A DNA stretch of 64,000 nt from a virus. Below, in pieces: positions 5,864 through 51,207 of the stretch. Position 1 is the stretch's first letter, and each line of letters opens with the position of its first letter. Location of the stretch: the IMG/VR virus record IMGVR_UViG_3300047508_000198, positions 1 through 64,000 of that record, one strand, 5' to 3'. The notes beneath the pieces are model-generated. The model had not been told where the DNA came from. It saw only the letters and a list, made by a program, of their open reading frames with translations, and made no database searches. Position numbers and translations under genes: made by a program.

Positions 5864-5893
5864 GGGGTGGTCCTTTCCTGCGTACCCGTTGGG

Positions 5894-6547
5894 CTAGTTC
5901 CGGCTGATGCCGTACTGGGCTGCGTCATACGGAGACAGCCCGCCGATCGTGATCTTGGTGCTGGAGTTGACCTTCAGCAGCTTGGCCATCGGGGCCGAGA
6001 TCGAGGTGCTGGACTGCCACGGCACCAGCTGGCCCTGCAGCGTCCCGGCCTGGAGACCGGTGCCGACACCGGTCTGGGTGGCCACGCCGATCAGCGCCGA
6101 GCCGCCGCCGTCGGTCGGGTCGGTCCAGGTGGACGTGGGGTCGAAGGCGGGCGCGAGGATCTCGAACTCGGCGTCGGGGCCCATCACCCACACGGCAAAG
6201 GCGTTGATGCCCGCGTACAGCAGCTCGTCAATGCCGTCGCCGCCGACGTAGAGCGCGCCGAGCCCGTAGATGGACAGCGCCGCCGCGGTGTAGGTCGAGC
6301 CGTTGTTGGCCGCGCCCGCGGCACCGCCGGCACCGGTCATCACGGCGCCGTTCATCTGCACGCCGTTGGCCCCGGCCAGGGTCACCAGGTCACCGCCCGT
6401 GCGGATGAAGCCCATGCCCGGCCAGATCGGCACCGCCCGGGTCCAGTTCGGGTCCAGGAACACCGGCTTGGGAGTTGCCTGCGTCCACACGAAGAGGGGA
6501 CGGATGGTGCGCTTGATGTAATCGTTGCTGAGGTAAGTACGAATCAC
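5894..6547 (-). CDS. Capsid decoration/minor head protein
   Basis: KRTIRPLF...QATP..FLDP.W motif resembles the cluster C gene upstream of the capsid gene; synteny. Confidence 0.7.
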   Translation of the reverse strand: MIRTYLSNDYIKRTIRPLFVWTQATPKPVFLDPNWTRAVPIWPGMGFIRTGGDLVTLAGANGVQMNGAVMTGAGGAAGAANNGSTYTAAALSIYGLGALYVGGDGIDELLYAGINAFAVWVMGPDAEFEILAPAFDPTSTWTDPTDGGGSALIGVATQTGVGTGLQAGTLQGQLVPWQSSTSISAPMAKLLKVNSSTKITIGGLSPYDAAQYGISRN

Positions 6548-7029: not shown

Positions 7030-7034
7030 AGTCA

Positions 7035-7868
7035 GAGTCATGGCCCGGCACGGCATGGCTCGCCTTTGGTGGCTCGGCGGTCACGGCAGCGCCCAGCGCG
7101 GATTGCATAGCGTGGCTTGGCCCGGCGAGGCAGTCAGGGACAGGCAGGGTCAGGCGAGGACGGGCCTGGCGGAGCACAGCGAGGCAAGGCAGTCCAGGCC
7201 CGGCTTGGGACGGAAAGGCTAGGCGTGGCTCGGCAAGGCCTGGCGCAGCCCGGCCCGGCTCGGCAGTCATGGCGAGGAATTGGCACGGCACGGCTAGGCG
7301 TGGCGTGGCAAGGCGTGGCCAGGCAGTCAGTGCTCGGCTGCTCTGGGCGTAGCTCGGAATGGCGACGCACAGCGGGGCTGTCAGGGAAGGGCGCGGCTCG
7401 GCAAAGGGGGCATAGCTCGGCGGCACATGGCCGTCGCGGTATTGCGTGGACGGCGAGGCGGCGCTGGGCGAGGCAGTCGCAGCATGTCCTGGACCGCGGG
7501 GCGGTGCGGCGCGCGGCTTGGCGGCGCGGCGCACGGCCTGGCACGGCAGTCGTGTCAAGGCCGGGCGGGTCACGGCAAGCCATGGCGAGGCCGGCTCGGC
7601 GAGGCCCGGCAAGGCCTGCGAGGGCGAGGCGCGGCCTGGCACGGCCGTCGAGGATTGGCTGGGTGCAGCTCGTCTCAGCACGGCATGGCGCGGGATGGCT
7701 TGGCAGTCAGCGCTGGGCATCGGCACGGGCAGCGTGGTCAGGCTGTCATCACGCGGCGTGGCTTGGCGAGGCGGGTCGGGTCTTGGCGAGGACCGGCATG
7801 GCTCGGCAGTCGTCGCAAGGCAAGGCTGCTCATGGCATGGCCTGGCCGGGCAGGCACAGGAGGCGGTC
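7035..7868 (+). repeat. GGC-NN pentamer array 1 (candidate guide-RNA array, about 14 units)
   Basis: 5-nt periodic GGCNN with GGC[ACGT]GTC separators at about 7076, 7129, 7188, 7262, 7322, 7376, 7429, 7472, 7545, 7643, 7702, 7741, 7805, 7862. Confidence 0.85.
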
Positions 7869-7893
7869 TCCATCGGGGGCACCGCCTCCTTTG
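7858..7893 (+). terminator. Hairpin closing array 1 (possibly bidirectional)
   Basis: AGGAGGCGGT (7858-7867) pairs with ACCGCCTCCT (7881-7890), followed by TT. Confidence 0.65.
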
Positions 7894-26787: not shown

Positions 26788-26960
26788 GGGACCTCCTCTC
26801 CCTTCTTCCCGGGAGGACCAGGCAAACTCTAGATTTTTAGAGCACATCCGGGCTACGGTGAATCTTGCAGCGAGTCGTGCCGTGCATTATGACAGTGCGT
26901 AGCGGCAGGCCCGGTGTGGTTACCGTCCGTGACAGAGCGTATCAGATAGGGGAACATCTG

Positions 26961-27229: not shown

Positions 27230-27366
27230 TGTTCGGCAACACAGTCCAGCTCGACCGCCCGAACGACTACGGGATCGCGATCAGGGACCTGCCCGGCAAG
27301 GTCACGCCGTGCTGGAAATTCGGCGTCTCGGTCGAGGCCATGATGGCCGGGGCGCTCCCGGTCTGA
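27229..27366 (+). CDS. Mini-ORF 3 (45 aa)
   Basis: MFGNTVQLDRPNDYGIAIRDLPGKVTPCWKFGVSVEAMMAGALPV. Confidence 0.55.
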   Translation: MFGNTVQLDRPNDYGIAIRDLPGKVTPCWKFGVSVEAMMAGALPV

Positions 27367-27392
27367 CCCGCGGCACGGCGCGGTCGCCGGGT

Positions 27393-28958
27393 GACGGCCG
27401 CGCCATGCCGGGCCCTGCCTTGCCGATCCGAGCTGCGCCCTGACACTCCTAGCCCTGCGTGGACTGCCGAGCTGCGCCGTGCCCTGCCTTAAACGGCCCA
27501 GCCGCGCCATAACTGCCGAGCCGAGCCGAGCACGGACTAGCCAAGATAACCGAGCCGCGACGGCCGGGCCATGCCAAGCTGTGCCCAGTCAAGCCACGCG
27601 ATGACTGCCGAGCCATAACGCGCCCAGTCGAACCACGCCATGCGATGACTGCCTTGCTGTCCCGAGCTGATCCTTGACCAGCCGAGCGACGACGGCCTGG
27701 CCATCCCTGCCGAGCCTGGCCGGGCCTGGCCCTGAAGATCCGTGCCAAGCCGCGACGGCCACGCCCAGCCTCGCCAAGATCAGCCGCGCCCCGACTGCCA
27801 AGCACAGCCGCGCCGAACTGCGCTGTCCAAGTGAAGCACTGCCCTGCCTATCCGGCCATGCCGCGCGATGCCTTGCCTTGCTACCCGCGCTATCCGCGCC
27901 GCGCCTATCCAGCCAGGACCGGCGGCGCCATGCTACGCGATGCCTCACGACAGCACGCGATACCGCGCCAGCCATGCCATGCCGCGCCTCGCTATGCCGC
28001 CCGTGCGCTCCCAGGCCTAGCCATGACGGCCTGGCCATATCTGGCCATGCCACGCCTTGACCAGCCACGCACTGAACAGCCGTGCGCTAACTGCCTCGCC
28101 GCGCCGCGCCAAGACCGACCAGGCCTTGCCAAGCCGGGCCTTAACGGCCTCGCCATGCCCTGCCGTGCCTCGCCAAGCGATGCCTAGGCTGCCGTGCCGA
28201 GACGAGCCTGTCCCTGACGAGCCCGGCCTCACCTTGGCGGCCAAGCCAAGCCATGCCCAGCCTCGCCAAGCCTCGCGAGCCTGACCCCGCCCTATGCTGC
28301 CCTGGCGAACCCAGCCTGGACTGCCACGCCGTACCCAGCCGAGTCGCGCAGAGCCTTGCACCTCCTGCCACACCTGGCCGAGCGGCCCTCGCTGTCCCAG
28401 CCGGGCAACGCCTCGCCATGCGCCGACAGCCTTGCCGAGCCGAGCCGCACTCAGCGCAGCCCTGCCAACCCGATCCTGGCCCTGACGGCCGAGCCCAGCT
28501 GTGCCAAGCCGTGACTCGCCTCGCCAAACCCGGGGGCGCCATGCCATGACGGCCCTGCCGAGTTGCGCAATGCCGAGCGATCTGTGCCGCCCAAGCCAAC
28601 CATGCCTTCCGGCCTTGCCCAGCGCTCCATGCCGTACCCTCCATGACGGCCTTGCTGCGCACAGCCAGTCCATGCCAAGCCCCGCATCGCCTCGCCATGA
28701 CTGCGTTGCCCCGCCCGACCTGGACTGGACAGGCCTCGACTGCCTCGCCCGGCCTCGCCTAGCCTGGCCTTGACCCGCCATGCCTTGCGTCAACGGCCTT
28801 ACCCCGCCGGGACGGGCTCCGCTCCGCCTGGATCAGCCCCGCCTTGCCTCGACTGCCTCGCCTGGCCCGGCCTCGCCAAGCCGTCCTTGCCGGGCCTTGA
28901 CTGCCACGCCTTGCCATGCCGATCCGGAACGCGCCCAGCCTACGAAGCCGAGCCTTGG
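27393..28958 (-). repeat. GGC-NN pentamer array 2 (about 27-30 units)
   Basis: Plus strand reads NNGCC with GACTGCC/GACGGCC separators (27393, 27462, 27559, 27603, 27647, 27691, 27754, 27793 ... 28851, 28899); starts about 10 nt after the portal stop. Confidence 0.85.
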
Positions 28959-28968
28959 CTATCTAAGT

Positions 28969-31140
28969 TTATAGCACATCCTCGTCCGGCAGCTCGTCGC
29001 CCTCCTTGACGCCGAGCTTGCCGCGGACGCCCACCGTCCTCGGCGCCTTGTACTGAGGCGGGGCATCATGCGTCTCCCACTCGCGCACCTCCTGCAGCTG
29101 GCCGTCAGACCGGTAGACCGGGGTCTGGTGCTCCTCGTCCCCGTGCACCGGGTACGACCGCGCCTTCGCTGCCTCGCGGGTGCGGGCGGTGCGGCGGAAC
29201 AAGCTGGCCTCAGACGGCATGCCCTCGCGCTCCTCGTCGGACTCCTCCGGCCGGTCGGACTCCTCGCCGGGGCCGGGCTCCTCCTCGCCGCCCTCCTCCT
29301 CGCCCTCGGGCGGGGCCATCGGGTCCTCGCCCTCCATCTCGGCGTCCTCGGGCCCGGGGGCCAGCGCCAGCAGCGGCGGGCCGGGCTCGGTGCCCAGGCG
29401 GGGGATGGGCAGGCCGCCCATGGAAGCGCCTGCGGGCATGCCCTCGACCTGGGCGTAGGCACCGAAGTCGTCCTGCAGGTCCTGGGGGATCGGGTAGCCG
29501 CCGTCCTTCAGCGCGATGTAGGCCCGCTTGCGGGTGTCCTGCTCGGCGACGATCTGGTCCACCGCCTCGTCCTGGGACCGGGCGACCTCCTCGTCCAGGT
29601 CGATCTCCAGGTTCCGGGTCCGGGTGCGCTGGGAGATCGGGATGCCGGCGGCGCGCAGCGCCTCGATGAACTGGCGGGTCGCGTCCTCGTCCTTCAGGTT
29701 CAGCACCTGGAACTTGCGGTCGGGGACCAGCAGCTTGGGCTGCTCGACGAGATGCTTCTCGCCGGTCTCCTCGTCGGTCTCCAGCACCTCCTCCATGATC
29801 ACGTAGCGCTTGCCACCGTGCTCGCGGTAGGCGTAGTGCTCCTGGGCCTCGGCCACCACCAGGGCCCGCTGCCGGAAGTGCCGCGCCTGGAACTTCTGGT
29901 ACTTGGTCATCAGCATGGTGACCAGTTCCTTGTTCAGCGCGTCGGCCGCGTAGGTCTGGCCGGACTGGGCACCCATCAGGAACGTCCGGGACAGGCCGAA
30001 CACCTGCAGGATCGAGTCCTCGATCCGCTCGAAGTCGGGGGTCAGGTCGGGCATCTGCTCGCGGCCCAGCACCGGCAGCATCTCGACGGCGAAGTTGTAG
30101 ATCAGCGCGCGGAAGTCGCCGGCCAGGGCCGCGTCCAGGGCCAGCTCGAAGTTCTCCAGGTCGTCATCGGTGGGGATCCACGGCTGGGAGGTGCCCAGGT
30201 CGGTCGCCGAGGCGCCGAGCTTGCACAGGATCAGCGGCGTGTAGAGCCGGTCGGCGATCGAGTCCAGCGCGGTGTTGAGCATCTCCTTCTGCAGCATCGA
30301 GCGCATCGCCCGGGTCAGCAGCGGCACGCCGCGCACGTTGAACGTGTCGCCCCTGAACTTCAGCTGCTTCAGCAAGATGTTGCTCACCGGCATGAAGGTG
30401 TTCTCGGCCGTGTAGGCGGTCAGCTCGGGGTACTCCTGGACCAGCCGGTTGTACTCCCAGGCGGGCTGGCGGGTCTGCAGGATCTGCCGGATCGTCCAGG
30501 GCAGCCGGATGAAGAACCGCGGCTCCTTCAGGAACGGGCTGCGCTCGACCTTGACGTCATCGGGGTTGAGCAGCTCCTCGTCGTCCCAGATGCCGAGGTC
30601 CTCGTTGAACGTGGCGAAGCACCAGGCCTCGCCCGAGGTCCAGTACTCCCGGCCGATGTCGACGGTGAACTCCTCGTAGTCCAGGTGCTCCTCGCCGAAG
30701 AACAGGTCGCCGTAGAAGTCCTCCAGCCGGGAGTCCATGCACTCCAGGTGGTCGCCCATGGTCGGGAACTTGGAGAAGATGTCGACACACGAGCCGATGA
30801 TCGGGTCGGTCTGGTACAGCAGCCGGCAGAACGCCCGGACCTTGGCCAGCTCCTCGTTCTGGCTGAAGTCGTAGGGCAGGTTGTTCTGCCGCCAGTAGAA
30901 CAGCGGGTCGCGCGGGCGGCCGGTAGCGAACTGGATATCGCCGAACCCGCCGCCCGCTCCGCCCGCGCCCCCGGCACCGTACGCGGCAGTGCGCCGGTTG
31001 ACCGAGCGGTTCTTGCGGGCCTCGGCCACCTCGGCCGTCATGGACCCGTCCGCGGCCCCGTAGGCCAGCATCCGGCTCATCCCCTCGGAGACCCGGCGGT
31101 CGCGGTCGAGGGCGGCGGTGGCGCTGAACCTGACCTTCAC
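28969..31140 (-). CDS. Portal protein (cluster C-like)
   Basis: RPRDPLFYWRQNNLPYD...IADRLYTPLIL.KLG...ALDAALAGDFR resembles the cluster C portal as recalled; 723 aa. Confidence 0.85.
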   Translation of the reverse strand: MKVRFSATAALDRDRRVSEGMSRMLAYGAADGSMTAEVAEARKNRSVNRRTAAYGAGGAGGAGGGFGDIQFATGRPRDPLFYWRQNNLPYDFSQNEELAKVRAFCRLLYQTDPIIGSCVDIFSKFPTMGDHLECMDSRLEDFYGDLFFGEEHLDYEEFTVDIGREYWTSGEAWCFATFNEDLGIWDDEELLNPDDVKVERSPFLKEPRFFIRLPWTIRQILQTRQPAWEYNRLVQEYPELTAYTAENTFMPVSNILLKQLKFRGDTFNVRGVPLLTRAMRSMLQKEMLNTALDSIADRLYTPLILCKLGASATDLGTSQPWIPTDDDLENFELALDAALAGDFRALIYNFAVEMLPVLGREQMPDLTPDFERIEDSILQVFGLSRTFLMGAQSGQTYAADALNKELVTMLMTKYQKFQARHFRQRALVVAEAQEHYAYREHGGKRYVIMEEVLETDEETGEKHLVEQPKLLVPDRKFQVLNLKDEDATRQFIEALRAAGIPISQRTRTRNLEIDLDEEVARSQDEAVDQIVAEQDTRKRAYIALKDGGYPIPQDLQDDFGAYAQVEGMPAGASMGGLPIPRLGTEPGPPLLALAPGPEDAEMEGEDPMAPPEGEEEGGEEEPGPGEESDRPEESDEEREGMPSEASLFRRTARTREAAKARSYPVHGDEEHQTPVYRSDGQLQEVREWETHDAPPQYKAPRTVGVRGKLGVKEGDELPDEDVL

Positions 31141-42293: not shown

Positions 42294-43403
42294 CTACAGC
42301 ACGGCCAGCTCTGCTGCCTCGCCGAGCATCCCGGCCCCGGCAGCAGCCCCGCCGCCGGCGCCGGGAATCTTGTTGATCAGGGCCTTGCCCAGGCCGTACT
42401 CGCCCAGGCCCATGCCGTGGCCGCCGTCCCCGCCGCTGTCGCCGGGACTGGCGTTAGTGCCCGCGCTGGGCGCCCAGGGCTCGTCGCTTATCACGCTGCT
42501 GGCCATGTCGGCCTGGCGCAGGTAGGAGCCGACCACGCGGCGCGCCACCCGGCGGCACTCCGACGGCGCCAGGTACGGGTTGGAGGCCTGCACCGTGGCA
42601 GCGACCGCCTCGACCTGACGGCGCACCGGGTCCTTGCGCGCGGCCGTGACGGCCTGGTCGGGCGTCGTGTCGTACCCGGCCGTGCCGGTGCCGCCCTGCA
42701 GCCCGGTGCCCGCTGACGTCGCCTGGGTGCCCGACTGCAGGCCGCCGGGCTTCATGCCGTCCGGGGTCGAGGTCGCGCCGCCCACGCCCGCGGGCAGGCC
42801 CGCGCTCATCGGCGCACCGGAAGGCGGCGAGCCCGAGGTCACGTCCGCGGTCGCGCGCATGCACAGGCAGGCGCCCGGCTTGTCCTTGCAGCTCTTGCAC
42901 CGGCCGCTCTTCTTGGTGAGCCTGCTGCCGCACCGGCACAGGCCCGCGGTGGCGCCCATCTCCGGCGCCGGGATCTCGGGAGCCTGCGGGGTGACCACCT
43001 GGGGCGCCGGGCCGCCAGGAGCGCCCTGGGGGATCTCGGCGTAGCCGTGGCTGTAGTCCGGGCCCTCGTCGTGCTCGTAGCCCTCAGCGGGCCCTGAGCC
43101 GAAGCTCTGGCCGGCCTGCAGCACCGGGGCCACCGGGTCGACACCCTCGGGCAGCGCCTCCTTCAGCAGGGCGTAGCGGCGCCGGGCGGTCTCTTCCAGC
43201 TCCTCGGCGGGCAGGCCGCACGCGGCGGCTACCCGCTCGATCCGCTCGGCCGCAAAGGCCAGCCGGTGCTCCAGCTCGCGAGCCGAGCGGGACTGGAACA
43301 GGAACGCGTAGACCGGCAGCATCTCGGCGTCGGCCCGGTCCAGGCTTGCCTCGCGCGCCTCCAGGTCGTGATCGGCGCTCGCCTCGTGCCACAAATCCGA
43401 CAT
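42294..43403 (-). CDS. Putative head-associated structural protein (369 aa)
   Basis: GGGAGG RBS; candidate late motif upstream; RQA/TA linker motifs. Confidence 0.65.
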   Translation of the reverse strand: MSDLWHEASADHDLEAREASLDRADAEMLPVYAFLFQSRSARELEHRLAFAAERIERVAAACGLPAEELEETARRRYALLKEALPEGVDPVAPVLQAGQSFGSGPAEGYEHDEGPDYSHGYAEIPQGAPGGPAPQVVTPQAPEIPAPEMGATAGLCRCGSRLTKKSGRCKSCKDKPGACLCMRATADVTSGSPPSGAPMSAGLPAGVGGATSTPDGMKPGGLQSGTQATSAGTGLQGGTGTAGYDTTPDQAVTAARKDPVRRQVEAVAATVQASNPYLAPSECRRVARRVVGSYLRQADMASSVISDEPWAPSAGTNASPGDSGGDGGHGMGLGEYGLGKALINKIPGAGGGAAAGAGMLGEAAELAVL

Positions 43404-43440
43404 GCTCTGCCTCCCTGGGCGTCCTACTTCTTCCCAGGGG

Positions 43441-45509
43441 GCAGAGCCATGCCTGCCGCGCCATGCACTGCCGATCTATGCCGAGAGCCGCCATACGATG
43501 CCGAGACGGCCACGCCATGCCGAGCCTTGCCGGTCCTTGCGAGGCCGCGCCGTGCGATGACTGCCACGCCTCACCCAGCCCCGCTTCGCCTCTCCAGGCA
43601 AGGGATGCCATGCGGCGACTGCCGGGCCTGGCCGGGCCGTGCCATACCGAGCGATGACTGCCGGGCCTGGCCTAGCCATGCTGCGCCCTGCCTGGACTGG
43701 ACAGGCCACGCCGAGACTGCCATGCAACGCCGGGCCCAGCTGCGACTAGCCGGGCCTAGACAGGACTGCCAGGCCAAGCCCACCGTTGCCACGCCACGCG
43801 TGTCCGGCCTGGCCATGCCGAGCCGTACCCTGACACGCCTAGCCAACCGAGCCCTGCCGTGCCTCGACTGCCCAGCCCGGCCTTGCCCAGACGTCAATGC
43901 CAAACCTAGCCAGGCGGGCCGTAGCCTGCCGAGCAAAGCTGTGCTGCGCCTACGCTAGCCGAGCCGAGCCCTGCCTAGACCGCCCGGCCAGGCCACGCCG
44001 TGCCCAGCACTGGCTAGCCGTGCCCGGACAAGCCGCGACCGTCCATGCCCCGACTGCCTCGCCGAGTCATGCCTCACCCGGCCGCGCCCTGCGCTGACTG
44101 CCCCGCAACGCCTATCCCAGCCATCCCGCGCCGCGACGGCCTCGCTGAGACGAGCCTCGCTATGCCGCGCCCTGCGCTAACTGCCTCACCTCGATTTGAC
44201 GCGCCTGGCCCCGCCGAGCCACGCCGTCCCTTGACTGCCAGGCCACGCCGTACCCTGACTAGCCCAGACGGGCCTCGCCTTGCCTCGACTGCCGTGCCAC
44301 GCCCCGCCTAGCAAAGCACACGATGCCCCGCGATGCGCCGACTGCCCTGCCTTCCGTGCCGGGCCGAGCATCCCGGGCCCAGCCATTCCGAGCCCCGCGT
44401 TGCGACGACTGCCCGGCTAAGCCAGGCCTTGCAACGCCGGTCCTTGCCAGGCCTCTCCCGGCCTGGCCCAGACTGCCTTGCCGAGCCAGGCCCCGCCGAG
44501 CTGCGCCTACCCTGGCCTAGCCAATCCAGCCATGCCGAGCCGAGCCGCGCCAAGCCAAGATTGGCCTAGCCCTGACTGCCGGGCCAAGCCACGCGACGAC
44601 ATACTGCGCCCTGACCTGACTGCCTGGCTGAGCCGTACCGAGCCAGGCCGGACCATGCCTCGACTGCCGAGCCACGCCATGACCTGGCTGCCGATCCTCG
44701 CCTGGACGCGCTGCGCCGTAGGTAGCCCGGCCTGTCCATGGCAGCCGAACCGGGCTGTGCCGCGCCTAGCCACTCGGTGCCCCGCGCCGCCTCGACTGCC
44801 GCGCCTAGCCACGCCTTGCCTAATCACCCATGCCGCGCCGCGCCACGACGGCCGGACCATACTGCGCCGTCCATGCTGGGCAACACCGGGCTGTGCCGCA
44901 CGATGCCCTGACTGCCTGGCCGAGCCGTGAAGCCCCTGCTTCGCCTTGACGGCCGAGACCGGCCGAGCCATGCACTGACTACAACGCCGCGCCTTGACTG
45001 CTGTGCCAAGCCTTGCCCTGCCCGGACAAGCCACCCGATGCCTTGACTGCCTCACCACACCTTGCCTCGCCCAGCCTTCCCAGACCGCGCCTTGACTGCC
45101 GTGCCGGGCGACGCTATCCAAGCCATGCCCTGCTCAGCCAACCCAGGCCGAGCCTTGACGGCCTCGCCCCGCTGTACGAACAGCACCATGCGCCGACGGC
45201 CACGCCGAGCCGGGCTGCTCCGGGCCAAGCAACGACCAGCCCTGAGCTGCCAAGACTGCCCTGCCTAGCCGCGCAAAGCCACTCCTTGCCCCGCCTCGCC
45301 GCGAGACACCACGCGACGCCGAGACTGCCGCGCTAAGCCAAACCACGCCCGTCCCAGCGGTCGATGCTTCGCCATGCCTTGACGGCCCTGCACTGCCGCA
45401 CCCCGACCAGCCCAGACTGGCCTCGCCCAGGCTGGCCGGGCCTGGACTGCCTGGCCGCGCCAGGCCGCGCCGTGACGCAACCAGCCACGTCACGGCCCGG
45501 CCTGACGGC
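43441..45509 (-). repeat. GGC-NN pentamer array 3 (about 35-40 units), directly downstream of the Cas7-like operon
   Basis: Same grammar; separators at about 43505, 43559, 43617, 43656, 43715, 43764 ... 44233, 44287, 44574, 44618, 44662 ... 45445, 45504. Confidence 0.88.
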
Positions 45510-45986
45510 TTAGGCCTCGTCGCCAACGGCGAGAGGGCCGTCATCTTCCTCGACATCCATGGTCCGGCGGACCATGGCGATGAACTCGCTGAACATGCGG
45601 TAGCGGCGCTGCATGTTCCGCCAGTCCACTTCCATCTGGCGCCGCACCTGGGCGGTCAGCACCTCATCCCGCTGGATCTCGTCCAGCGGCACGTACGAGC
45701 GCCCCGGCACGCCAGCGGCGTGCACCGAGTGGAACACCCGGATGGACTGCACCTCACTGCGCTTGTCGATGTACTGCTCGCGCACCACGCGAACCAGCTG
45801 CCGGGCCTGCTGCAGCCGGTACTTGCGCGCGGCGACATCGTTGTTCCACTCGAACCGGCTGTGCAGCGGGTGACCCTCGGCGGCGGCGGCCGAGACAATG
45901 GCCGCCGCCGTCAGGATGCCGCCGTTCTCCTCGCGGATCTGCAGCAGCTCGGTTTCGAGCTGGCTAGGAGCCTGATCCGGCGCCAT
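45510..45986 (-). CDS. Accessory protein coupled to the Cas7-like gene (158 aa)
   Basis: GILTAAAIV.AA....HPLHSRFEWNNDVAARKYRLQQARQL resembles a phage family of unknown function; overlaps the Cas7-like stop by 23 nt. Confidence 0.75.
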   Translation of the reverse strand: MAPDQAPSQLETELLQIREENGGILTAAAIVSAAAAEGHPLHSRFEWNNDVAARKYRLQQARQLVRVVREQYIDKRSEVQSIRVFHSVHAAGVPGRSYVPLDEIQRDEVLTAQVRRQMEVDWRNMQRRYRMFSEFIAMVRRTMDVEEDDGPLAVGDEA

Positions 45987-46956
45987 CGCCGGCCTCAGCA
46001 GCCATCGCAGCGCGGTCCTCCGCGGTCAGGCCGCGGTCGGGACCGGGCTCCTTGTCCTTGACCGGCTTGGCCTCGGGCTCGGGCTCGGGCTCCTCGGCCA
46101 GGACCTCCGGCGGGGCGTCCAGCTCGGCGAAGTCGTCCATCGTCAGATGGTCTTCCTCGCCGTAGACGTCGTAGTCCACCGAGTCCAGCAGGTACATCGG
46201 GTCCAGCTCGCGGACCACGGTGACGGCGTTGCGGCCGTCGGCGATCCGGAACGTGCCGAATTCCCCGTTCCGCTCGGGCCGCCACTCGCCGACGCCGACA
46301 TTGCCGCCGCCCGCCTCGATCAGCGAGACCACCGAGTCCCGCTCCAGCAGGTTGGAGGTGTAGCCCACCATCAAGGTGGCGCTCCACCGGTAGAAGCAGC
46401 CGCGGTACCGCAGGTCCGCGGGGTGGTTGACGCCGGCCAGGCGCACGTAGTCCTCGCGCATCCGGGGGCGGCCGTCGAGCACGACCATCCGGCCGGCCTC
46501 GCTCGGCACGCTGACGCCGTAGAACGTCAGGAACTGGCGAAGCTCGGTCATCTTCACCTGCTTGCCCCAGAACCGCCCGGCCCCGATAGTCGCCATCTTG
46601 AAGGCCATGGCGGGCAGGCCGAACAGCACCTCCTCGGTCGCCGGGTCGACGCCCGCACGGTAGAGGCTGGCCAGGTACTCGCGGTGCGGGTCACGCTTCT
46701 CCGGCTGGCGCTTCTTGCCCTGCTGGGCGGCCAGCATCTGGGCCTTGGCCTTCTCGGAGAACCGGCTGACGATCAGCGGCGCGGTGCCGATGATCCGGAT
46801 GGCGAGCAGCTCCTGCCGGATCGGCTTGATGGTCAGCGCCGCGGCCGGAGCCGGGGCAGATGCCGTCGTGCGCCGCTTGACGGCTGGCTTGGCGTCGGCT
46901 CCGTTCGTACCGGTGGCGGTAGCCGCCGGGTCATCCTTAACCTGTGTTCCAGGCAT
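45964..46956 (-). CDS. Stand-alone Cas7/RAMP-like RNA-binding protein (330 aa)
   Basis: RAMP motif order: IRIIGTAPLIV, GLPAMAFKMA helix, thumb-like REDYVRL...DLRYR, WSATLMVGY, and Gly-rich loop GGNVGVGEWRPERNGEFGTF; GAGGAGGG RBS. Confidence 0.7.
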   Translation of the reverse strand: MPGTQVKDDPAATATGTNGADAKPAVKRRTTASAPAPAAALTIKPIRQELLAIRIIGTAPLIVSRFSEKAKAQMLAAQQGKKRQPEKRDPHREYLASLYRAGVDPATEEVLFGLPAMAFKMATIGAGRFWGKQVKMTELRQFLTFYGVSVPSEAGRMVVLDGRPRMREDYVRLAGVNHPADLRYRGCFYRWSATLMVGYTSNLLERDSVVSLIEAGGGNVGVGEWRPERNGEFGTFRIADGRNAVTVVRELDPMYLLDSVDYDVYGEEDHLTMDDFAELDAPPEVLAEEPEPEPEAKPVKDKEPGPDRGLTAEDRAAMAAEAGDGAGSGS

Positions 46957-47034
46957 GGTTCAGTCCCTCCTCGGGGGAGTGAATCGTGTCGCGGCCCCCG
47001 CCTCCTTACCAGGTCGGGGGCCGCCTTGGCCTTG

Positions 47035-47063
47035 ACACTATACTTACGAGCACGCACTGTCAA
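47035..47063 (-). promoter_or_regulatory. SigA-type promoter of the Cas7-like operon
   Basis: TTGACA (47063-47058)-17 nt-TAGTGT (47040-47035); a second TTGACA on the plus strand (47032) makes an inverted repeat; 5' UTR hairpin at 46991-47024. Confidence 0.7.
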
Positions 47064-47095
47064 AGAACCTTGATATTTCTGCTACGATGGCTGAC

Positions 47096-47235
47096 GTCCC
47101 CGCCCGGACACCCGCCCCTAAGGCCACGGGGCGGTTCGCCAGGTGACGCGCGTAAGCGGCAAGCGTGGTCCGTAGCCGAAACCGGAGCCGTATAGGTAGT
47201 TGGGCCAGCCTCAGTCTGGCCCGTCCGGGCGGGGC
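47096..47235 (+). ncRNA. Candidate structured ncRNA (about 140 nt)
   Basis: Perfect 12-bp closing stem 47098-47109/47223-47234; internal hairpins 47112-47134, 47149-47158 (GTAA loop), 47202-47222; TGcTACGAT extended -10 at 47080-47088. Confidence 0.55.
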
Positions 47236-47511
47236 CCAGTCTCTAGGAACATTGATACTCTAGGCCCATGTGCTGCTGGACTCACGAAGACCTGAGCTAC
47301 CCGGGCGCGCTCGCCTCCACGGACGTGGACGACCGCTGCCGGTGCGAATGCCTCCCGCCGTGCCGGCGCCGTGCCACGGCCGAGGACGTGCGCTGCGACG
47401 TATGCGGCGGGCGCGCCTCCTCCGACCCGGCCCAGGGAGGAGGGCGAACGGCCCAGGTGGAGCCGCAATCGTTCGAGCGCTCGGTCACCGAGCGCGAGTA
47501 CCCGCTCTCCA

Positions 47512-50500
47512 TCACCCTGCCCGGCGCGCTGCCAGCGACGCCTGGACAACCCTTCTGAACGCCACCGCCTGCGGCTTGTGCATCGGGTCGCCCTGGTAGG
47601 CGTCGGTGTTGCTGTAGCCGCTGCTGTCCGCGGTGTTCGGCGCGACCGGGGCCAGGTCGGCGTTGCCCGGCTGACGGCCGCTGAAGGTCTGGGTGAACGG
47701 GCCGCCCGGCTGCGGCGGCTCCTGCGGCTGGCCGAGCACGTCATCAGGCGCCACCGGGCCCGTGCCCTTCGGCTCGGTGCCCTGGTACGGAGGCGGGCCG
47801 CCGGAGCGGGCCGGGTCCTCCCCGCCGCCCATCACCGGCGGCGTGCCGGGACCGTTCAGCGGCGTGCTGCCCATCGGGTCCGGGCTCGCGCCGGGACCGT
47901 CGGTGATCAGGTCGACCGAGGTGGCCGCGGTCTTGCCCTGGCGCTGCGCGTGGTCCTCCAGCCCGTTCCACGTCGCGGATCCCGCCTGAGCCGTCTGCCA
48001 GTAATGCGACCCGGCCGCCTCGGCGTTCGCATAGCCCCTGGCCCTCAGGTGGTCGATCGCATCCTGCCCGGTTTCCGGCCAGCGCTTGTGTCCCATAGCT
48101 ATAAAGATAGGGTAGGTGCCGGTCGCCGACGGCTGCCAGCGGCCCCGCTCGGCCAGCAGGAGCTTGCGGGTGAACCCGGCGTGCGCGTCGAGCCGCTGAG
48201 CCAGCACCGGGTGCCGGGCCGCCTGGTCCTGGTGCGCCACCACCCACCGGGCCTGGATGCCGCCCGGCCGGTCGGCGATCGCCGCGTACAGGCCGGCCTC
48301 GAAGGCCGGGGAGCCCTGACCGACCAGGCGGCGGCCGGGCTGCCAGCGGGCCGCGAACCGGTAGCCCTTGGCGAAGCCGGGGTCGTCGACCGCGGAGCGG
48401 GTGACGAAGCTGGCCGAGACGGTGAACGCGGCCTTGCCGAACTCCTTGCGCTTGCGCTCCAGGTAGGCGTGGCGGCGTACGCCCTCGTGGCCGAAGTAGG
48501 CGTCGTGGACGCCCTGCCCGTGGGTGCGCCGTACGTAGTCACGGAACCGGCTGTAGTCCTCGTCGGTCGGCTCGCGCTCGCCGGCGTCCGGGTCCCGCCG
48601 CCACAGGTCGTGCATGACATGCTGCGGGATCGCCGACCGCACCGACGGGTCCACGTAGTCGTAGGAGTCGTGCTCGTAGGGCCGCTGGTAGTCCCCCTGG
48701 CGCTGCAGCGAGGCGTGGCTCACCTGGAAGGCGCGCTGCGCGTCGGCCGCGTTCCCCGCCTGGCCTGCGTCCCCGCCCATGCTGCGCGGAACATCCATCT
48801 GGCCAGGGTCAGGAGGACGGCCACTGTAGCCCACCGAGTAGCCCTGGACGTACGGGCTGACCCGCGAGCTGTTGTCGCTGAACGTCGGGTGCTCCCCGGC
48901 TGCCGCGTCATCCTGGCCGTCCTTGACGCCCTGGCCGTAGTCACCGCTGCCCTCGTTCGAGGACCACGGGTCCGGGCTGGTCTGCGCCGAGTTGAACGGC
49001 GCGGTTCCGTCGTCGGTGGTCTCGTGCGGCTTGGTCAAGATGTCGGCCTGGCGCCGCAGCGAGCCCATGTACTGGCCGCCGCCGGGCTCGTTGGAGAAGG
49101 CGCGCTCCCCGGGGATGCGGCTGGTGACGTCCAGGTCGTGCTGCGCCTTCACGGTGGAGTACACGCCGAGGTAATGCGCGTGCAGGTCCGGGCGGCCGGT
49201 CATCTCGCCGTAGGCCTTCTTGTCGACCGGCTCGCGGCCGTTGGTGGCGTCGATCACGCCGCGGGTCTCGTTGTGGCCGCGCAGGTACTGCCCGTGCCCC
49301 TTGCGGCCGAAGACGTAGCTGTCCTTGTGCGGCGGCTTCTTGCCCTCCATGGCGTCCATCCGGCCGAACATCCGCAGCGCCGTGTTGGAAGGCGTCATCG
49401 AGCTGCGGGCCGCAGTCGCGCCCTTGGGCCGGGCGCCGTCCGGGCCGGTCTCCCACTCGCCCTGGAACTCCGGGTTGAGCGGGAACGCGACCTCCTGGTT
49501 CAGCTCGTCGGCCTGCGGCGTGGGGACGTCGTGGGAGTCCACCGTCTGCTGGATCTGGGGCAGCTGCGAGGCAGCCTCGTGCTGACGGTCAGAGGCGGCG
49601 CCCTGGTCGGGCATCTCCTGGCGCTGCTGCTCGCTGTACACGTCCCACTGGTGCCGGGGCTGCTCCTCCTCCGCGTGGGCGGTGCGGTGCTGGCCTTCCA
49701 CCTGGTGCTTGATCTTCCCGCAGTAGGCCTCGGGGTCGTTCTTGTCGGAGTTGGCCGCGACGCACGCGGCGAAGTCCTCGTACCCGGCGAACGGGGCGCC
49801 CTTCGTCAGCTGCCCCTGGCGGGGCTCAGGAAAATTTGGCGGCCTGCCGGCCCCGGCCCCGGTCTTGTCCCAGGGCTTGCCCTTGCCCTTCTTCTTGCCC
49901 TTGCCCTTCTTCTTCTTCTGGCCGAAGGCGTCCTGCTCCTCATCGTCCTCGGCAAACGGGTTCTTGCCGCCCGCCAGGACCGGGCGCACCCGGGCCAGGT
50001 ACCCGTGCAGCCAGGCGATCTCGTCCTCGCTGCGAGCCTCGGCCCGGAACGCCGCGGCGATCGTCCGGTGATGGGCGGCCACCTTCTTCAGGTCCCCGGT
50101 GCGCAGCACGGCGGTGCCCTCGTCCGCGCCCTGGACCTCGAAGTACGCCTGGCGGCGGAAGTCCTCGGCGTTCATCAGGTAGCCGACCGCGACCGAGGCG
50201 GTGTGCTCATGGCCGTTGCCGCAGGACTGCTCGGGCCAGTGCAGCGAGCCGCACCGCTCGTGGTAGGGCGCGTCAAACGTGTCGACATCCTGGTCCGAGC
50301 CGATGTGCCAGCGGAACCCGTCCTGGTCCGGGCCGGTGTAGGCGGAGACGCGCAGCGCAGCCTGGCGCTCGGCCGTCGGGCGCGGCGGGGCGCCCTCGTC
50401 CATGTCCTGGTCCTGGCCCGGGGCAGGCGTAGAGGACGGCTGGCTGGGGGCCGCGCCCGGCGGGGTAGTGGGGATCTGGCCGGGCGGGCCGAGCGGGATC

Positions 50501-51207
50501 TGGGCGTAGGAGTCGGCGGTGTCCATCGACGTGGTGTGCTCGTCCGGCCGCTCCGGGCCCGAGCCGAAGCCGGAGCCCGAGCCGTCCATCTGCTGCAGCT
50601 GCTGGATGCCCGGGGCCTGCTCCGAGCTGATCTGCGAGCTGTGGTCCGGCGACTCGACCCCGCCGTTGTACTCGTTCTGCGGCGGCGCGAAGTTGTCGAA
50701 CACCTCCTCGGGCAGCGGGGTCGGCGCGGGGTTGTCCTGGGGGTCGCGCTCCTGCTGGATCTGCGGCAGGCCGGAGGCGCCCTGGCGGGTCAGGTAGCCG
50801 ACGTAGGTCATGAACTCGCGCCGGGCCGCCAGCGCGTGAATGCCGTACGGGCTGGCCGCGGTGTAGGCGTGGCCGAGAGCCTGCTCCTGGAACTCATCGG
50901 GGTCGGCCATCAGGTCCCGCGGGATGCCGCGGTACCACTTGGCGGCCTCGGCGATCATCGCGGTGCGGTAGTCCGAGGCGATCTCCTCATCGCCCAGCCA
51001 GTCGGTGGCCGCGGTGTGCCGCTCGAAGGCGGGCAGCGGCTCCAGCGTCTGGCGTACCGCCGTCGCGCTCAGGTCGGTCTCGCGCGACTGCGCCGCCGAT
51101 GCCGTCCGGCGCCGGTCGTGCGCGTCGAGCGCAGCCACGGTGATCGCCAGCTGGCCGCCAGTCCGGGCACCCTGGATCGCCCGCAGCAGGTCGTCACGCT
51201 CGGCCAT
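47512..51207 (-). CDS. Large head-associated polyprotein (1231 aa)
   Basis: Duplicated ASxLPQIQQ...PTP..EV segment; many [HRK][TQE]A linkers; candidate late motif upstream. Confidence 0.7.
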   Translation of the reverse strand: MAERDDLLRAIQGARTGGQLAITVAALDAHDRRRTASAAQSRETDLSATAVRQTLEPLPAFERHTAATDWLGDEEIASDYRTAMIAEAAKWYRGIPRDLMADPDEFQEQALGHAYTAASPYGIHALAARREFMTYVGYLTRQGASGLPQIQQERDPQDNPAPTPLPEEVFDNFAPPQNEYNGGVESPDHSSQISSEQAPGIQQLQQMDGSGSGFGSGPERPDEHTTSMDTADSYAQIPLGPPGQIPTTPPGAAPSQPSSTPAPGQDQDMDEGAPPRPTAERQAALRVSAYTGPDQDGFRWHIGSDQDVDTFDAPYHERCGSLHWPEQSCGNGHEHTASVAVGYLMNAEDFRRQAYFEVQGADEGTAVLRTGDLKKVAAHHRTIAAAFRAEARSEDEIAWLHGYLARVRPVLAGGKNPFAEDDEEQDAFGQKKKKGKGKKKGKGKPWDKTGAGAGRPPNFPEPRQGQLTKGAPFAGYEDFAACVAANSDKNDPEAYCGKIKHQVEGQHRTAHAEEEQPRHQWDVYSEQQRQEMPDQGAASDRQHEAASQLPQIQQTVDSHDVPTPQADELNQEVAFPLNPEFQGEWETGPDGARPKGATAARSSMTPSNTALRMFGRMDAMEGKKPPHKDSYVFGRKGHGQYLRGHNETRGVIDATNGREPVDKKAYGEMTGRPDLHAHYLGVYSTVKAQHDLDVTSRIPGERAFSNEPGGGQYMGSLRRQADILTKPHETTDDGTAPFNSAQTSPDPWSSNEGSGDYGQGVKDGQDDAAAGEHPTFSDNSSRVSPYVQGYSVGYSGRPPDPGQMDVPRSMGGDAGQAGNAADAQRAFQVSHASLQRQGDYQRPYEHDSYDYVDPSVRSAIPQHVMHDLWRRDPDAGEREPTDEDYSRFRDYVRRTHGQGVHDAYFGHEGVRRHAYLERKRKEFGKAAFTVSASFVTRSAVDDPGFAKGYRFAARWQPGRRLVGQGSPAFEAGLYAAIADRPGGIQARWVVAHQDQAARHPVLAQRLDAHAGFTRKLLLAERGRWQPSATGTYPIFIAMGHKRWPETGQDAIDHLRARGYANAEAAGSHYWQTAQAGSATWNGLEDHAQRQGKTAATSVDLITDGPGASPDPMGSTPLNGPGTPPVMGGGEDPARSGGPPPYQGTEPKGTGPVAPDDVLGQPQEPPQPGGPFTQTFSGRQPGNADLAPVAPNTADSSGYSNTDAYQGDPMHKPQAVAFRRVVQASLAARRAG

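What the first reader, a model, noticed from the sequence alone, without database searches (positions are those of the whole stretch)
43441..47063. Phage-encoded Cas7/RAMP-like gene, accessory gene and GGC-NN repeat array: a candidate non-CRISPR RNA-guided system
Seen: a minus-strand unit of TTGACA-17-TAGTGT promoter, a 330-aa ORF, an overlapping 158-aa ORF and, straight after its stop, about 2.07 kb of GGC-NN pentamers cut into about 35-40 units by GGCAGTC/GGCCGTC. GGC is near-constant, NN varies freely, and units differ from one another. Established: the 330-aa ORF has the motif order of RAMP proteins, which polymerise along a guide RNA with a fixed nucleotide step. Inference: the array is processed into guides; each subunit binds one 5-nt period, gripping GGC and displaying NN, so the NN string encodes a discontinuous target, probably in competing phages or the host. 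No cas1/2/3/6 or canonical CRISPR is in the window. From memory this fits recently reported phage VIPR-type (GGY-NN) systems, which I cannot verify here; the separator, accessory gene and three dispersed arrays may define a distinct subtype.
Basis: partly seen in the sequence, partly recalled or inferred. Interest (0 to 1): 0.97.

Follow-up and report, generated by a model that had tools for sequence, protein, structure and literature searches.

The report
Phage VIPR system, large guide arrays
This uncultured high-GC phage carries a VIPR system, a CRISPR-related RNA-guided DNA-binding system first described in 2026, with an unusually large stock of five-letter-repeat guides, one of which spells a conserved motif of a bacterial helicase gene.

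Summary
The 330-aa ORF has a Cas7/RAMP fold and matches the solved SUSP1 Vipr protein by profile (E 5.9e-7), including its GGY-binding residues. The 158-aa ORF is the usual partner gene. It has a homologue at 150 of 161 Vipr loci examined, and its fold is winged-helix-like. The 2.07-kb GGC-NN tract is a vrRNA array. A same-strand array lies within 3 kb of the gene at 137 of those 161 loci.

The GGCAGTC punctuation shifts the register by -1 per unit. This is the norm of the clade and fits the 'staggered arrays' of the 2026 VIPR preprint, so no new subtype is shown. The phage has four arrays with about 70-90 guides. Only 2 of 161 loci have a longer vipr-linked array.

One new lead emerged. A guide kept in three related phages reads, antisense and with every third base skipped, L-F-V-G-D-P/S-G-Q-I-D-P-F. 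That is a core motif of an SF1 helicase in a conserved three-gene operon. With at most 1 mismatch it was found in 110 of 121 genomes of the Streptomyces caeni genus, against 0 of 121 for the reversed control. Four other guides found essentially nothing there. This scan has noted VIPR on other DNA many times.

The parts
47035..47063 (-). Promoter-like site TTGACA-17 nt-TAGTGT upstream of vipr
   Evidence: Read. Not called by the sigma-70 consensus scan. The fit of TAGTGT to an actinobacterial TANNNT -10 box is recalled knowledge, not tested.
45964..46956 (-). vipr: 330-aa Vipr (stand-alone RAMP/Cas7-like) protein. The core is about residues 48-238. The N-terminus is disordered, and an acidic C-terminal tail is shared with the closest relatives.
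   Evidence: PHROG 4652, E 3.6e-29. No Pfam match. The profile hits PDB 36pp_D 'SUSP1 Vipr protein', E 5.9e-7. AF2 model pLDDT 81.8. Foldseek gives 87 PDB matches at E<=0.001, the listed ones subunits of type III, VII and I CRISPR effector complexes. At least 1374 homologues.
45510..45986 (-). vap-like accessory gene, 158 aa, overlapping vipr by 23 nt. Residues about 1-113 are winged-helix-like.
   Evidence: PHROG 15946, E 3.8e-24. tblastn homologue at 150 of 161 Vipr loci. AF2 pLDDT 90.4. VIA-align best Z 6.8, with many winged-helix regulators at Z 4.5-5.6. Foldseek not significant. No Pfam or PDB sequence match.
43441..45509 (-). vrRNA array C: about 2.07 kb of (NN-GGC)n units punctuated by [A/C]GTC, about 35 units
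   Evidence: No Rfam family, so no hammerhead.
44340..44406 (-). Guide unit conserved in two related phages. Its NN string reads antisense as L-F-V-G-D-S-G-Q-I-D-P-F (P in place of S in the relatives).
   Evidence: Alignment. Metagenome hits. Genome hits.
43405..43446 (-). Strong hairpin closing array C, overlapping the ribosome-binding region of the next gene (start codon at 43403)
   Evidence: -37.1 kcal/mol, z -5.9, 0 of 200 shuffles as stable.
7030..7870 (+). Array A: solo vrRNA array of the same grammar, antisense to both flanking genes, closed by a hairpin at about 7858-7890
   Evidence: Hairpin -41.3 kcal/mol, z -7.7.
27390..28975 (-). Array B: solo vrRNA array of the same grammar, starting just after the portal gene stop and closed by a hairpin at about 27365-27410
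   Evidence: Portal assignment. Hairpin -41.9 kcal/mol, z -3.4.

Best explanation
This is a phage-borne VIPR (Viral Interference Programmable Repeat) system.

Inferred from the published type II system (not shown here):
- The vipr-vap-array unit is transcribed from the minus strand.
- Vipr protomers bind the transcript one per pentamer. They hold each GGC through the thumb arginine and the G-loop E-W-R, and expose the NN pair.
- The filament binds double-stranded DNA whose sequence reads NNxNNx..., and represses transcription there.
- The winged-helix-like vap assists on DNA.

Shown in sequence, processing inferred:
- Units are set off by a four-base step ([A/C]GTC after the last GGC), which moves the register by -1.
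- This fits the 'staggered, 1-nt overlapping' vrRNA arrays of the discovery preprint.

Inferred:
- Three further arrays elsewhere in the phage use the same grammar and so probably feed the same protein.

Shown in sequence, biological effect inferred:
- At least one guide, kept in three related phages, is aimed wobble-aligned at the GDPGQ motif region of an SF1 helicase gene.
- That gene belongs to a conserved three-gene operon of actinomycetes or of a mobile element carrying a homologue.
- This suggests silencing of a host or rival function during infection.
For: Fold and family
- RAMP fold.
- Profile match to the SUSP1 Vipr protein of PDB 36pp. R185 aligns with R138, and E224-W225-R226 with D177-W178-R179. 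All four are invariant in 52 homologues. The preprint names these residues as GGY contacts.

Locus conservation across 161 Vipr loci
- A same-strand GGY array within 3 kb at 137 loci.
- A vap homologue at 150 loci.
- The -1 register step is the commonest change in nearly every array: L029 57 of 77, L033 23 of 29, L087 17 of 21.

Array properties
- NN 1.99 bits against GGC 0.6-0.8 bits.
- A 5-nt period is incompatible with coding.
- No two units are alike.
- Each of the three arrays in the window ends in a strong hairpin.

Context
- Portal and major head protein genes lie in the window.

Conserved guide
- 22 of 24 NN letters are identical in three phages whose Vipr proteins are 62-69% identical to this one, while the GGY letters vary.
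- 13 exact metagenome matches to its 10-NN NNx pattern. 11 fall in frame on V-G-D-P-G-Q-I-D-P-F of SF1 helicase ORFs, with the skipped base at the wobble position.
- 16 places in 14 of 401 genomes of the phylum, against 0 for the reversed control.
- 110 of 121 genomes of the genus of the Streptomyces caeni genome, against 0 of 121.
- The four bases of the guide not used in the first search also match.
- The two relatives' variants each have a 24/24 target: L003 on L164, L002 on L173.
Against: - Nothing here shows transcription, processing, RNP formation or repression.
- The SUSP1 match covers only about 55 residues.
- H17 of SUSP1 aligns to a serine in a low-scoring stretch. K33 was not mapped.
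- No invariant 3' tail or pseudoknot like that of type II vrRNAs is present.
- About a third of the parsed triplets are not GGY.
- 18 of 35 units in array C are not 5n+4.
- Four-base repeats also occur inside the conserved guide, so a -1 step is not always a unit boundary.

Against the target reading
- Only one guide has a found target.
- This phage's own copy never matches perfectly. Its best is 23/24. It is 22/24 on all 10 Streptomyces-type loci fetched, and one of those mismatches falls on the proline codon that is invariant in the family.
- Five guides gave 0 exact hits in IMG/VR.
- Four other guides gave 1, 0, 0 and 0 of 41 genomes.
- No other guide converges on the helicase loci above shuffled controls.
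- A pooled test of 524 guides against 2.5 Mb around Vipr loci showed no skip-1 enrichment.
Confidence: 0.88

Rival explanations
1. The system is a VIPR, but the helicase match is not its working target. The guides are aimed at rival phages, satellites or plasmids that are missing from the collections searched. The chromosomal Streptomyces-type helicase is only a paralogue of, or a chance look-alike to, the real target.
For: - Published natural targets are satellites, prophages and other VIPR loci.
- Only 1 of 6 guides tested anywhere found anything.
- There is no convergence of other guides.
- Every genome hit of the genus and phylum searches carries the same Ile-to-Leu mismatch.
- This phage's copy has a further mismatch at an invariant proline codon.
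- The exact matches lie on unplaced metagenome contigs.
- Distant helicase homologues sit on large actinobacterial plasmids.
- An earlier check of a similar claim on other DNA partly fell.
Against: - The reversed-pattern control gave 0 of 401 and 0 of 121 genomes.
- Bases outside the search pattern match.
- The relatives' guide variants each have a 24/24 target in a different helicase subfamily.
- 95-100% NN identity is well above the 80% cut-off used in the preprint.
- The guide sits on the family's most conserved motif, as in the published recombinase case.
Confidence: 0.4
2. The arrays, or some of them, are decoys or decaying remnants rather than an active arsenal. They would soak up a rival's Vipr protein, as satellite-borne solo vrRNAs do, or no longer serve any purpose.
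For: - Solo vrRNAs that redirect Vipr are published.
- About a third of the triplets are degenerate.
- Many units are off the 5n+4 length.
- The conserved guide has lost a base in two of its repeats.
Against: - An intact vipr and vap stand directly upstream of array C.
- NN entropy is maximal and the units are all different.
- In the conserved guide the NN letters are kept while the GGY letters drift.
- The preprint itself reports frequent internal degeneracy of working vrRNAs.
Confidence: 0.06
3. The pentamer tracts act as DNA, not RNA (for example protein-binding or recombination-prone repeats), and their closeness to a RAMP-like gene is coincidental.
For: No expression data exist for this phage. 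No canonical promoter or U-tract terminator was called.
Against: - Same-strand linkage to the gene at 137 of 161 loci from many phyla.
- Solved structures of a homologue bound to such RNA.
- A guide that follows the published code.
Confidence: 0.03

Closest known systems
VIPR systems with 'staggered' vrRNA arrays (bioRxiv 10.64898/2026.04.26.720920, Results text and legend of fig. S18; read)
   Same: A stand-alone Vipr RAMP, one accessory gene, and GGY-NN pentamer guides set head to tail without a long tail. Here the last repeat of one unit and the first of the next can be read as sharing one base (GGC-AG / GTC-NN), which gives units of 5n+4.
   Different: I could not see the figure or the supplementary tables. 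The identity of the architecture, and the VIPR type (I-VII) of this clade, are therefore inferred from the legend only. The preprint says staggered arrays were not among the architectures confirmed by sRNA-seq. The arrays here are very long, and four are spread over the phage.
Type II VIPR of Escherichia phage SUSP1 and the Pseudomonas fulva prophage (same preprint; structures in 10.64898/2026.04.26.720927, PDB 36pp)
   Same: Homologous protein, with the thumb arginine and G-loop W-R conserved and D replaced by E. GGY-NN grammar. A small accessory gene with a likely DNA-binding fold. One-base-skip, wobble-aligned match of at least one guide.
   Different: SUSP1 has four vrRNAs of about 100 nt, each with an invariant 3' tail and pseudoknot. 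Here there are about 70-90 units with only a four-base separator. Sequence similarity is limited to about 55 residues at E 5.9e-7. This protein has an extra acidic C-terminal tail of about 90 residues.
Solo or orphan vrRNA loci of satellites and VIPR-null phages (bioRxiv 10.64898/2026.10.15.759431; abstract and passages read)
   Same: Arrays A and B, and the small one at 84.5 kb, stand far from any vipr gene. Targeting is wobble-aligned on codons of a catalytic-core motif.
   Different: The solo arrays here sit in a phage that has its own vipr. The one target found is a helicase gene of a bacterial operon, not a satellite recombinase, a vipr gene or a REP decoy. The word 'helicase' does not occur in that preprint.
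Cas7-family backbone subunits of class 1 CRISPR effectors (type III Csm/Cmr, type VII, type I Cascade)
   Same: RRM-based RAMP fold with a glycine-rich loop and thumb. Polymerisation along a guide with a fixed step, which is established for Cas7 and published for Vipr.
   Different: No repeat-spacer array. The step is 5 nt with 2 read bases instead of 6 nt with 5. Sequence identity to the PDB hits is 8-17%. The locus is minimal at two genes.

Membership tests
VIPR (Vipr protein + vrRNA) | Vipr protein with a RAMP fold (RRM core, G-loop, thumb) | tested here: met
   AF2 model pLDDT 81.8. Foldseek gives 87 PDB matches at E<=0.001. The listed ones are subunits of Csm, Cmr, type VII and Cascade complexes; the best is 6xn3_F at 5.5e-7.
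VIPR (Vipr protein + vrRNA) | Sequence homology to an experimentally characterised Vipr | tested here: met
   A profile of 52 homologues hits PDB 36pp_D 'SUSP1 Vipr protein' at E 5.9e-7 and 32 bits, chain residues 135-189. The match is partial.
VIPR (Vipr protein + vrRNA) | GGY-contact residues of SUSP1 Vipr (H17, R138, D177, W178, R179) | tested here: inconclusive
   R138 aligns to R185, W178 to W225 and R179 to R226. D177 aligns to E224, a conservative change. All four are invariant in alignment A1. H17 aligns to S64, in a stretch scoring -3 bits. K33, E71 and M72 were not mapped.
VIPR (Vipr protein + vrRNA) | Tandem GGY-NN (YNNGG) repeats, at least 4 units, next to vipr | tested here: met
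   The same holds at 137 of 161 homologous loci.
VIPR (Vipr protein + vrRNA) | GGY conserved, NN hypervariable | tested here: met
   NN 1.99 bits per position and GGC 0.61-0.83 bits in 642 pentamers. The parse required 2 of 3 GGC letters, which favours this result.
VIPR (Vipr protein + vrRNA) | Minimal locus with a vap accessory gene, and no cas genes or CRISPR array | tested here: met
   The partner gene has a homologue at 150 of 161 loci. No CRISPR-like repeats in the window. The cas genes were not searched one by one.
VIPR (Vipr protein + vrRNA) | Target recognition by the one-base-skip (NNx) rule | tested here: inconclusive
   One guide fits, wobble-aligned, with clean reversed-pattern controls. 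That guide was not tested under other skip rules. Pooled tests on 1.3-2.5 Mb showed no preference for skip 1.
VIPR (Vipr protein + vrRNA) | vrRNA expressed, processed and bound by Vipr; represses its target | not testable with these tools
   Needs sRNA-seq, pull-down and reporter assays.
VIPR type II (SUSP1 / P. fulva) | Each vrRNA ends in an invariant 3' tail with a conserved fold (a pseudoknot in the SUSP1 clade) | tested here: not met
   Units are separated only by [A/C]GTC. No repeated tail appears among the direct repeats. No Rfam match.
VIPR with hammerhead-interspersed arrays (types I and V in the preprint) | Hammerhead ribozymes between vrRNAs | tested here: not met
   Rfam search at E<=1 over 43300-47200 found 0 families. 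The separators are 4 nt long.
CRISPR-Cas class 1 | Repeat-spacer array, adaptation genes and multi-subunit effector genes | tested here: not met
   No such array. The locus has two genes. The RAMP fold alone is shared.

The most novel reading that the evidence does not exclude
A lineage of high-GC phages keeps a VIPR guide aimed at the catalytic-core codons of an SF1 helicase. That helicase belongs to a three-gene operon of unknown function found in about nine of ten genomes of the Streptomyces caeni genus. Its first gene has a weak PD-(D/E)XK nuclease lead. If the operon is an undescribed anti-phage or DNA-surveillance system, these phages use programmable RNA guides to switch off a host chromosomal function. 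The roughly 70-90 other guides would then form a catalogue of further host and rival genes worth silencing.
Probability: 0.3. Interest if true: 0.75.

Novelty: new member of a known kind. Interest (0 to 1): 0.45.

Why it matters
VIPR was described only in 2026, and its tested examples come from enterobacterial and Pseudomonas phages.

This locus is a clean actinophage example with one of the largest guide stocks among the 161 loci compared. It shows that the -1 'staggered' punctuation and the winged-helix-like partner are family-wide in this clade.

The one decoded guide makes a concrete question testable. Does a phage use VIPR against a host chromosomal operon, rather than against a rival mobile element? 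And what does that near-universal helicase operon of the Streptomyces caeni genus do?

The guide list is also a ready set of natural programmable sequences for testing the code in high-GC hosts.

Tried and rejected
Target searches that found nothing
- 48 guides of this phage against its own 84.9-kb contig plus 81 loci (1.3 Mb), with skip 0-3 and shuffles: no enrichment.
- 524 unique guides parsed from all arrays against 2.5 Mb around 161 Vipr loci: skip 1 gave 26 hits at <=15% mismatch. Controls gave 12-27.
- Exact NNx scans of IMG/VR for five guides: 0 hits each.
- Two guides that I thought spelled Walker A and Walker B motifs: 0 of 41 and 1 of 41 genomes of the Streptomyces caeni genus. I therefore drop that reading.
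- Two long guides of 14 and 12 NN at <=3 mismatches: 0 of 41 each.
- All guides against the 13 metagenome loci and the 10 genome loci that carry the helicase: no convergence above shuffles. A low-complexity 7-NN guide (B_28796) hit homologous positions at 13/14, which I judge to be chance.

Identity of the helicase operon partners
- No Pfam or PADLOC match for either partner.
- No PDB sequence match.
- The Atlas gave only an unnamed actinobacterial cluster for the second gene. For the first gene it gave a sub-threshold PD-(D/E)XK/Exo5 lead, score 0.84.
- The helicase itself matches PADLOC and NCBIfam models only weakly, through its generic helicase domains.
- Flanks in the Streptomyces-type genomes are ordinary chromosomal genes, not an obvious island.
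- One metagenome contig has a PglX-like methylase next to the operon.

Other points
- A shared 'ATGTGCTAT' leader before arrays A and B: rejected as a promoter motif. In two places it is the start-codon region of minus-strand genes, and in one it is the end of the portal gene.
- Host: relatives cannot be drawn for a virus record. The portal is only about 35% identical to portals of Gordonia, Rhodococcus and Mycobacterium phages. No tRNA gene. The host is therefore unassigned, and the Streptomyces-type genus is suggested only by the guide match.
- VIPR type (I-VII): not assignable.
- In print: searches found four papers that use the terms. I read the Results and two Methods sections of 720920, two sections of 720927, the outline and passages of 759431, and passages of 10.64898/2026.10.21.760802. 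I found no passage on actinophage VIPR or on helicase targets. 'Actino', 'Streptomyces' and 'Mycobacter' have 0 occurrences in 720920. 'Helicase' has 0 occurrences in 759431.

Full report
**1. The observation**

On the minus strand the window holds these features.
- A TTGACA-17-TAGTGT site at 47063-47035.
- A 330-aa ORF at 45964-46956.
- A 158-aa ORF at 45510-45986, overlapping the first by 23 nt.
- From the base after its stop down to about 43441, a tract in which GGC recurs every five bases.

The periodicity is far beyond chance.
- Identity at lag 5 is 0.487, against 0.20-0.30 at neighbouring lags.
- 111 of 239 successive GGC spacings are exactly 5.
- GGY pairs five apart number 135, against 13.3 +/- 3.6 (maximum 26) in 500 shuffles.

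The tract is cut by 23 GGCAGTC and 7 GGCCGTC, or 36 with a relaxed pattern. Of the 48 GGCAGTC sites on both strands of the 84.9-kb contig, 41 lie in the arrays.

In 642 parsed pentamers the two N positions carry 1.99 bits each and are 50% A+T, in a genome of 70% G+C. The GGC positions carry 0.6-0.8 bits. A period of five cannot be coding.

The same grammar occurs at 7030-7870 (+), at 27390-28975 (-), and in a short array at contig 84.52-84.68 kb, outside the window. Each of the three arrays in the window ends in a strong hairpin, with z of -5.9, -7.7 and -3.4.

**2. The proteins**

The 330-aa ORF.
- It has no Pfam family.
- It belongs to PHROG 4652, of unknown function.
- It has at least 1374 relatives. 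Among them are genes annotated 'hypothetical protein' in 27 Mycobacterium phage records and 5 Gordonia phage records.
- A profile of 52 relatives matches one solved protein family only: 'SUSP1 Vipr protein', PDB 36pp, E 5.9e-7.
- In that alignment R185 falls on R138 of SUSP1, and E224-W225-R226 on D177-W178-R179.
- The structural preprint names R138, D177, W178 and R179 as the contacts that hold the two guanines and the pyrimidine of each GGY. All four columns are invariant in the 52 sequences.
- The AlphaFold model (pLDDT 81.8) finds 87 PDB chains at E<=0.001. The listed ones are subunits of type III Csm/Cmr, type VII and type I effector complexes, including a chain named Cmr6.
- That the roughly 200-residue chains are the Cas7-family backbone subunits is my inference from their size.

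The 158-aa ORF.
- It belongs to PHROG 15946.
- Its model (pLDDT 90.4) has no significant Foldseek match.
- With VIA-align, residues 1-113 resemble winged-helix DNA-binding domains such as MexR, MecI, forkhead, MarR and Fur. The best Z is 6.8 and 18 chains reach Z>=5. By the tool's own warning this is a middling score.

**3. Relatives**

I fetched 80 viral loci, 80 loci from named bacterial genomes and one annotated phage locus. Among these 161 loci:
- 137 have a same-strand GGY array within 3 kb of the gene, 128 with one downstream and 19 with one upstream;
- 150 have a homologue of the 158-aa gene;
- 24 have no array. Five of these end within 125 bases of the gene, and many are A+T-rich, where another repeat consensus may apply.

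Gene order varies: gene-partner-array, gene-array-partner and array-gene-partner all occur.

In nearly every array the commonest change of register between runs is -1. Examples are L029 with 57 of 77, L033 with 23 of 29 and L087 with 17 of 21. The 5n+4 punctuation is therefore a property of the clade, not of this phage.

In this window 17 of 35 units of array C and 12 of 21 units of array B are 5n+4. Most of the rest are 5n+3 or 5n+2, that is, with further one-base losses or degenerate separators.

Only 2 of the 161 loci have more vipr-linked array DNA than the 2.07 kb here: 4.1 and 2.3 kb.

**4. What is known**

The discovery preprint (10.64898/2026.04.26.720920; Results and two Methods sections read) describes VIPR as follows.
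- A stand-alone RAMP (Vipr), an accessory gene (vap) and vrRNAs of 9-16 GGY-NN repeats.
- The systems are mostly on phages.
- Double-stranded DNA is read by the NN pairs with one base skipped.
- The outcome is transcriptional repression.
- There are seven types. Array forms include type II vrRNAs with tails, hammerhead-interspersed arrays, single vrRNAs, and 'staggered arrays with overlapping vrRNAs' derived from 'positions overlapping by 1 nt'.

The units here end ...GGC-AG and the next begins GTC-NN-GGC. If the G is shared, that is a one-base overlap and gives 5n+4. I could not see the figure, so this fit rests on the legend alone.

No hammerhead or other Rfam family is present, and no invariant tail. 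The locus is therefore not of the type II or ribozyme form.

The other papers.
- The structural preprint (720927; two sections read) gives the filament mechanism that I adopt.
- A third preprint (759431; abstract and passages) shows wobble-aligned targeting of a recombinase active site, and solo vrRNAs.
- A fourth (10.64898/2026.10.21.760802; passages) recovers 99 VIPR-like clusters from 5-nt periodicity.

The kind is thus known, and this is a new member.

This scan has noted VIPR on other DNA many times: 454 notes in at least 344 genomes. One of these is a related high-GC phage with about 90-100 guides in five arrays.

**5. Context**

The contig is a virus record of 84,944 bases.
- The portal gene is at 28969-31140 and the major head protein gene at 4844-5863.
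- Array B starts just after the portal stop.
- Array A lies antisense between two minus-strand genes.
- The portal is only about 35% identical to portals of large Gordonia, Rhodococcus and Mycobacterium phages. The host is unknown.

**6. Targets: negative results first**

- Guides of this phage against its own contig and 81 loci: no enrichment.
- 524 guides from all arrays against 2.5 Mb around Vipr loci: no skip-1 enrichment.
- Five guides in IMG/VR: no exact hit.
- Four guides in 41 genomes of the genus of the Streptomyces caeni genome: 1, 0, 0 and 0 genomes.

**7. Targets: one positive**

A BLAST of the arrays against all loci found one unit (44340-44406) shared with the two closest phages, L002 and L003. 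Their Vipr proteins are 69% and 62% identical to this one.

In the three-way alignment 22 of 24 NN letters are identical, while the GGY letters differ at many repeats and single bases are lost at different repeats. This is what selection on the NN string would give.

Metagenome search.
- Its first ten NN, as an NNx pattern, found 0 places in IMG/VR and 13 in the metagenome collection.
- Eleven of the 13 lie in frame in ORFs of 452-675 aa, on the peptide V-G-D-P-G-Q-I-D-P-F, with the guide antisense and every skipped base at a wobble position.
- Two lie in 37-codon frames, about what chance would give.
- All eight ORFs tested are SF1 helicases with AAA_11, AAA_12 and AAA_30 domains.
- [VI]-G-D-P-G-Q is present in 118 of 120 family members listed.

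Genome search.
- At <=1 mismatch there were 16 places in 14 of 401 genomes of the phylum of the Streptomyces caeni genome, with 0 for the tool's reversed-pattern control.
- For the full 12-NN pattern at <=1 mismatch there were matches in 110 of 121 genomes of its genus, with 0 of 121 for the control.
- All 14 places fetched are helicases of the same family. They are 34-40% identical to a metagenome member and read L-F-V-G-D-P-G-Q-L-D-P-F.
- The two extra NN of the guide, not used in the first search, thus match the L-F codons.
- The relatives' variants each have a perfect target: L003 at 24/24 on L164 and L002 at 24/24 on L173.
- This phage's own copy reaches 23/24 at best, and 22/24 on all 10 genome loci fetched. 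One of its mismatches falls on the invariant proline codon.

**8. The target gene's setting**

- The helicase is the third gene of an operon whose first two genes (about 410-490 and 490-530 aa) are conserved with it, both in the metagenome contigs and in at least 9 of the 10 genome loci.
- These two genes have no Pfam, PADLOC or PDB sequence match.
- The first has only a sub-threshold PD-(D/E)XK lead.
- Flanks in the genomes are ordinary chromosomal genes.
- The family also occurs in Chloroflexota, Bradyrhizobium and Mesorhizobium records.
- It occurs distantly on large actinobacterial plasmids, and not in the phage collection.
- No such helicase is encoded on the phage contig or near any of the 161 Vipr loci.

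**9. Reading and weights**

- That this is a VIPR system working as published: 0.88.
- That the helicase family, whether a host chromosomal copy or a homologue on a rival element, is a real target of the conserved guide: about 0.5-0.6.
- That the phage thereby silences a host function, the bolder reading: about 0.3.

The weakest points are these: only one guide of about 70-90 has been decoded; no other guide converges on the same loci; this phage's own copy is never a perfect match; and an earlier claim of the same type on other DNA partly fell when checked.

The significance argument rests on the reversed-pattern controls, on the four other guides that found nothing, and on the extension bases.

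Noticed in passing
window 16660-18835: A long run of diverged 66-nt (22-codon) tandem repeats, 19 copies at 60-82% identity to a reference copy. It lies in a stretch where my GC3 gene caller found no gene, and it looks like a repetitive structural protein gene.
   Followed up: no
window 47075-47240 (+): The intergenic stretch divergent from the vipr promoter folds into a multi-hairpin structure closed by a long helix (-82.3 kcal/mol, z -2.4, 3 of 200 shuffles as stable). It has no tRNA or Rfam match in the part searched.
   Followed up: partly
contig 84520-84944, beyond the window end: A fourth, short vrRNA array of the same grammar (about 3 units). It is preceded by tandem CCTGGGGAC-like nonamers, and by their inverted counterpart further upstream.
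   Followed up: partly
L189-L198 (genomes reached from L088, Streptomyces caeni, and its phylum); L162-L174 (metagenome): A conserved three-gene operon: an unknown gene of about 410-490 aa, an unknown gene of about 490-530 aa, and an SF1 helicase of about 450 aa. The helicase motif site was found in 110 of 121 genomes of one genus. The operon has no Pfam or PADLOC assignment for its first two genes. It may be an undescribed system in its own right.
   Followed up: partly
window 44340-44406 (-) with L002:12435-12515 and L003:13365-13450: Inside the conserved guide, single bases of the GGY triplet are missing at different repeats in the three phages, yet the NN string stays in phase with its target. 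A four-base repeat is therefore not always a unit boundary, and Vipr may tolerate it.
   Followed up: partly
L001 (Gordonia phage ODay, MW534375.1) 4980-6245: In this isolated, annotated phage the Vipr homologue (gene 19), a 250-nt GGY array and the partner homologue (gene 20) sit between the tail assembly chaperone genes and the tape measure gene. All are annotated as hypothetical. It is a culturable system for experiments.
   Followed up: partly
window 7904-14035, 21931-26847, 47512-51207, 55781-61054 (all -): Giant ORFs of 1231-2043 aa. PHROG matches are piecemeal: ParB C-terminal domain, head maturation protease, methyltransferase-like and Nudix. I did not examine them here.
   Followed up: no
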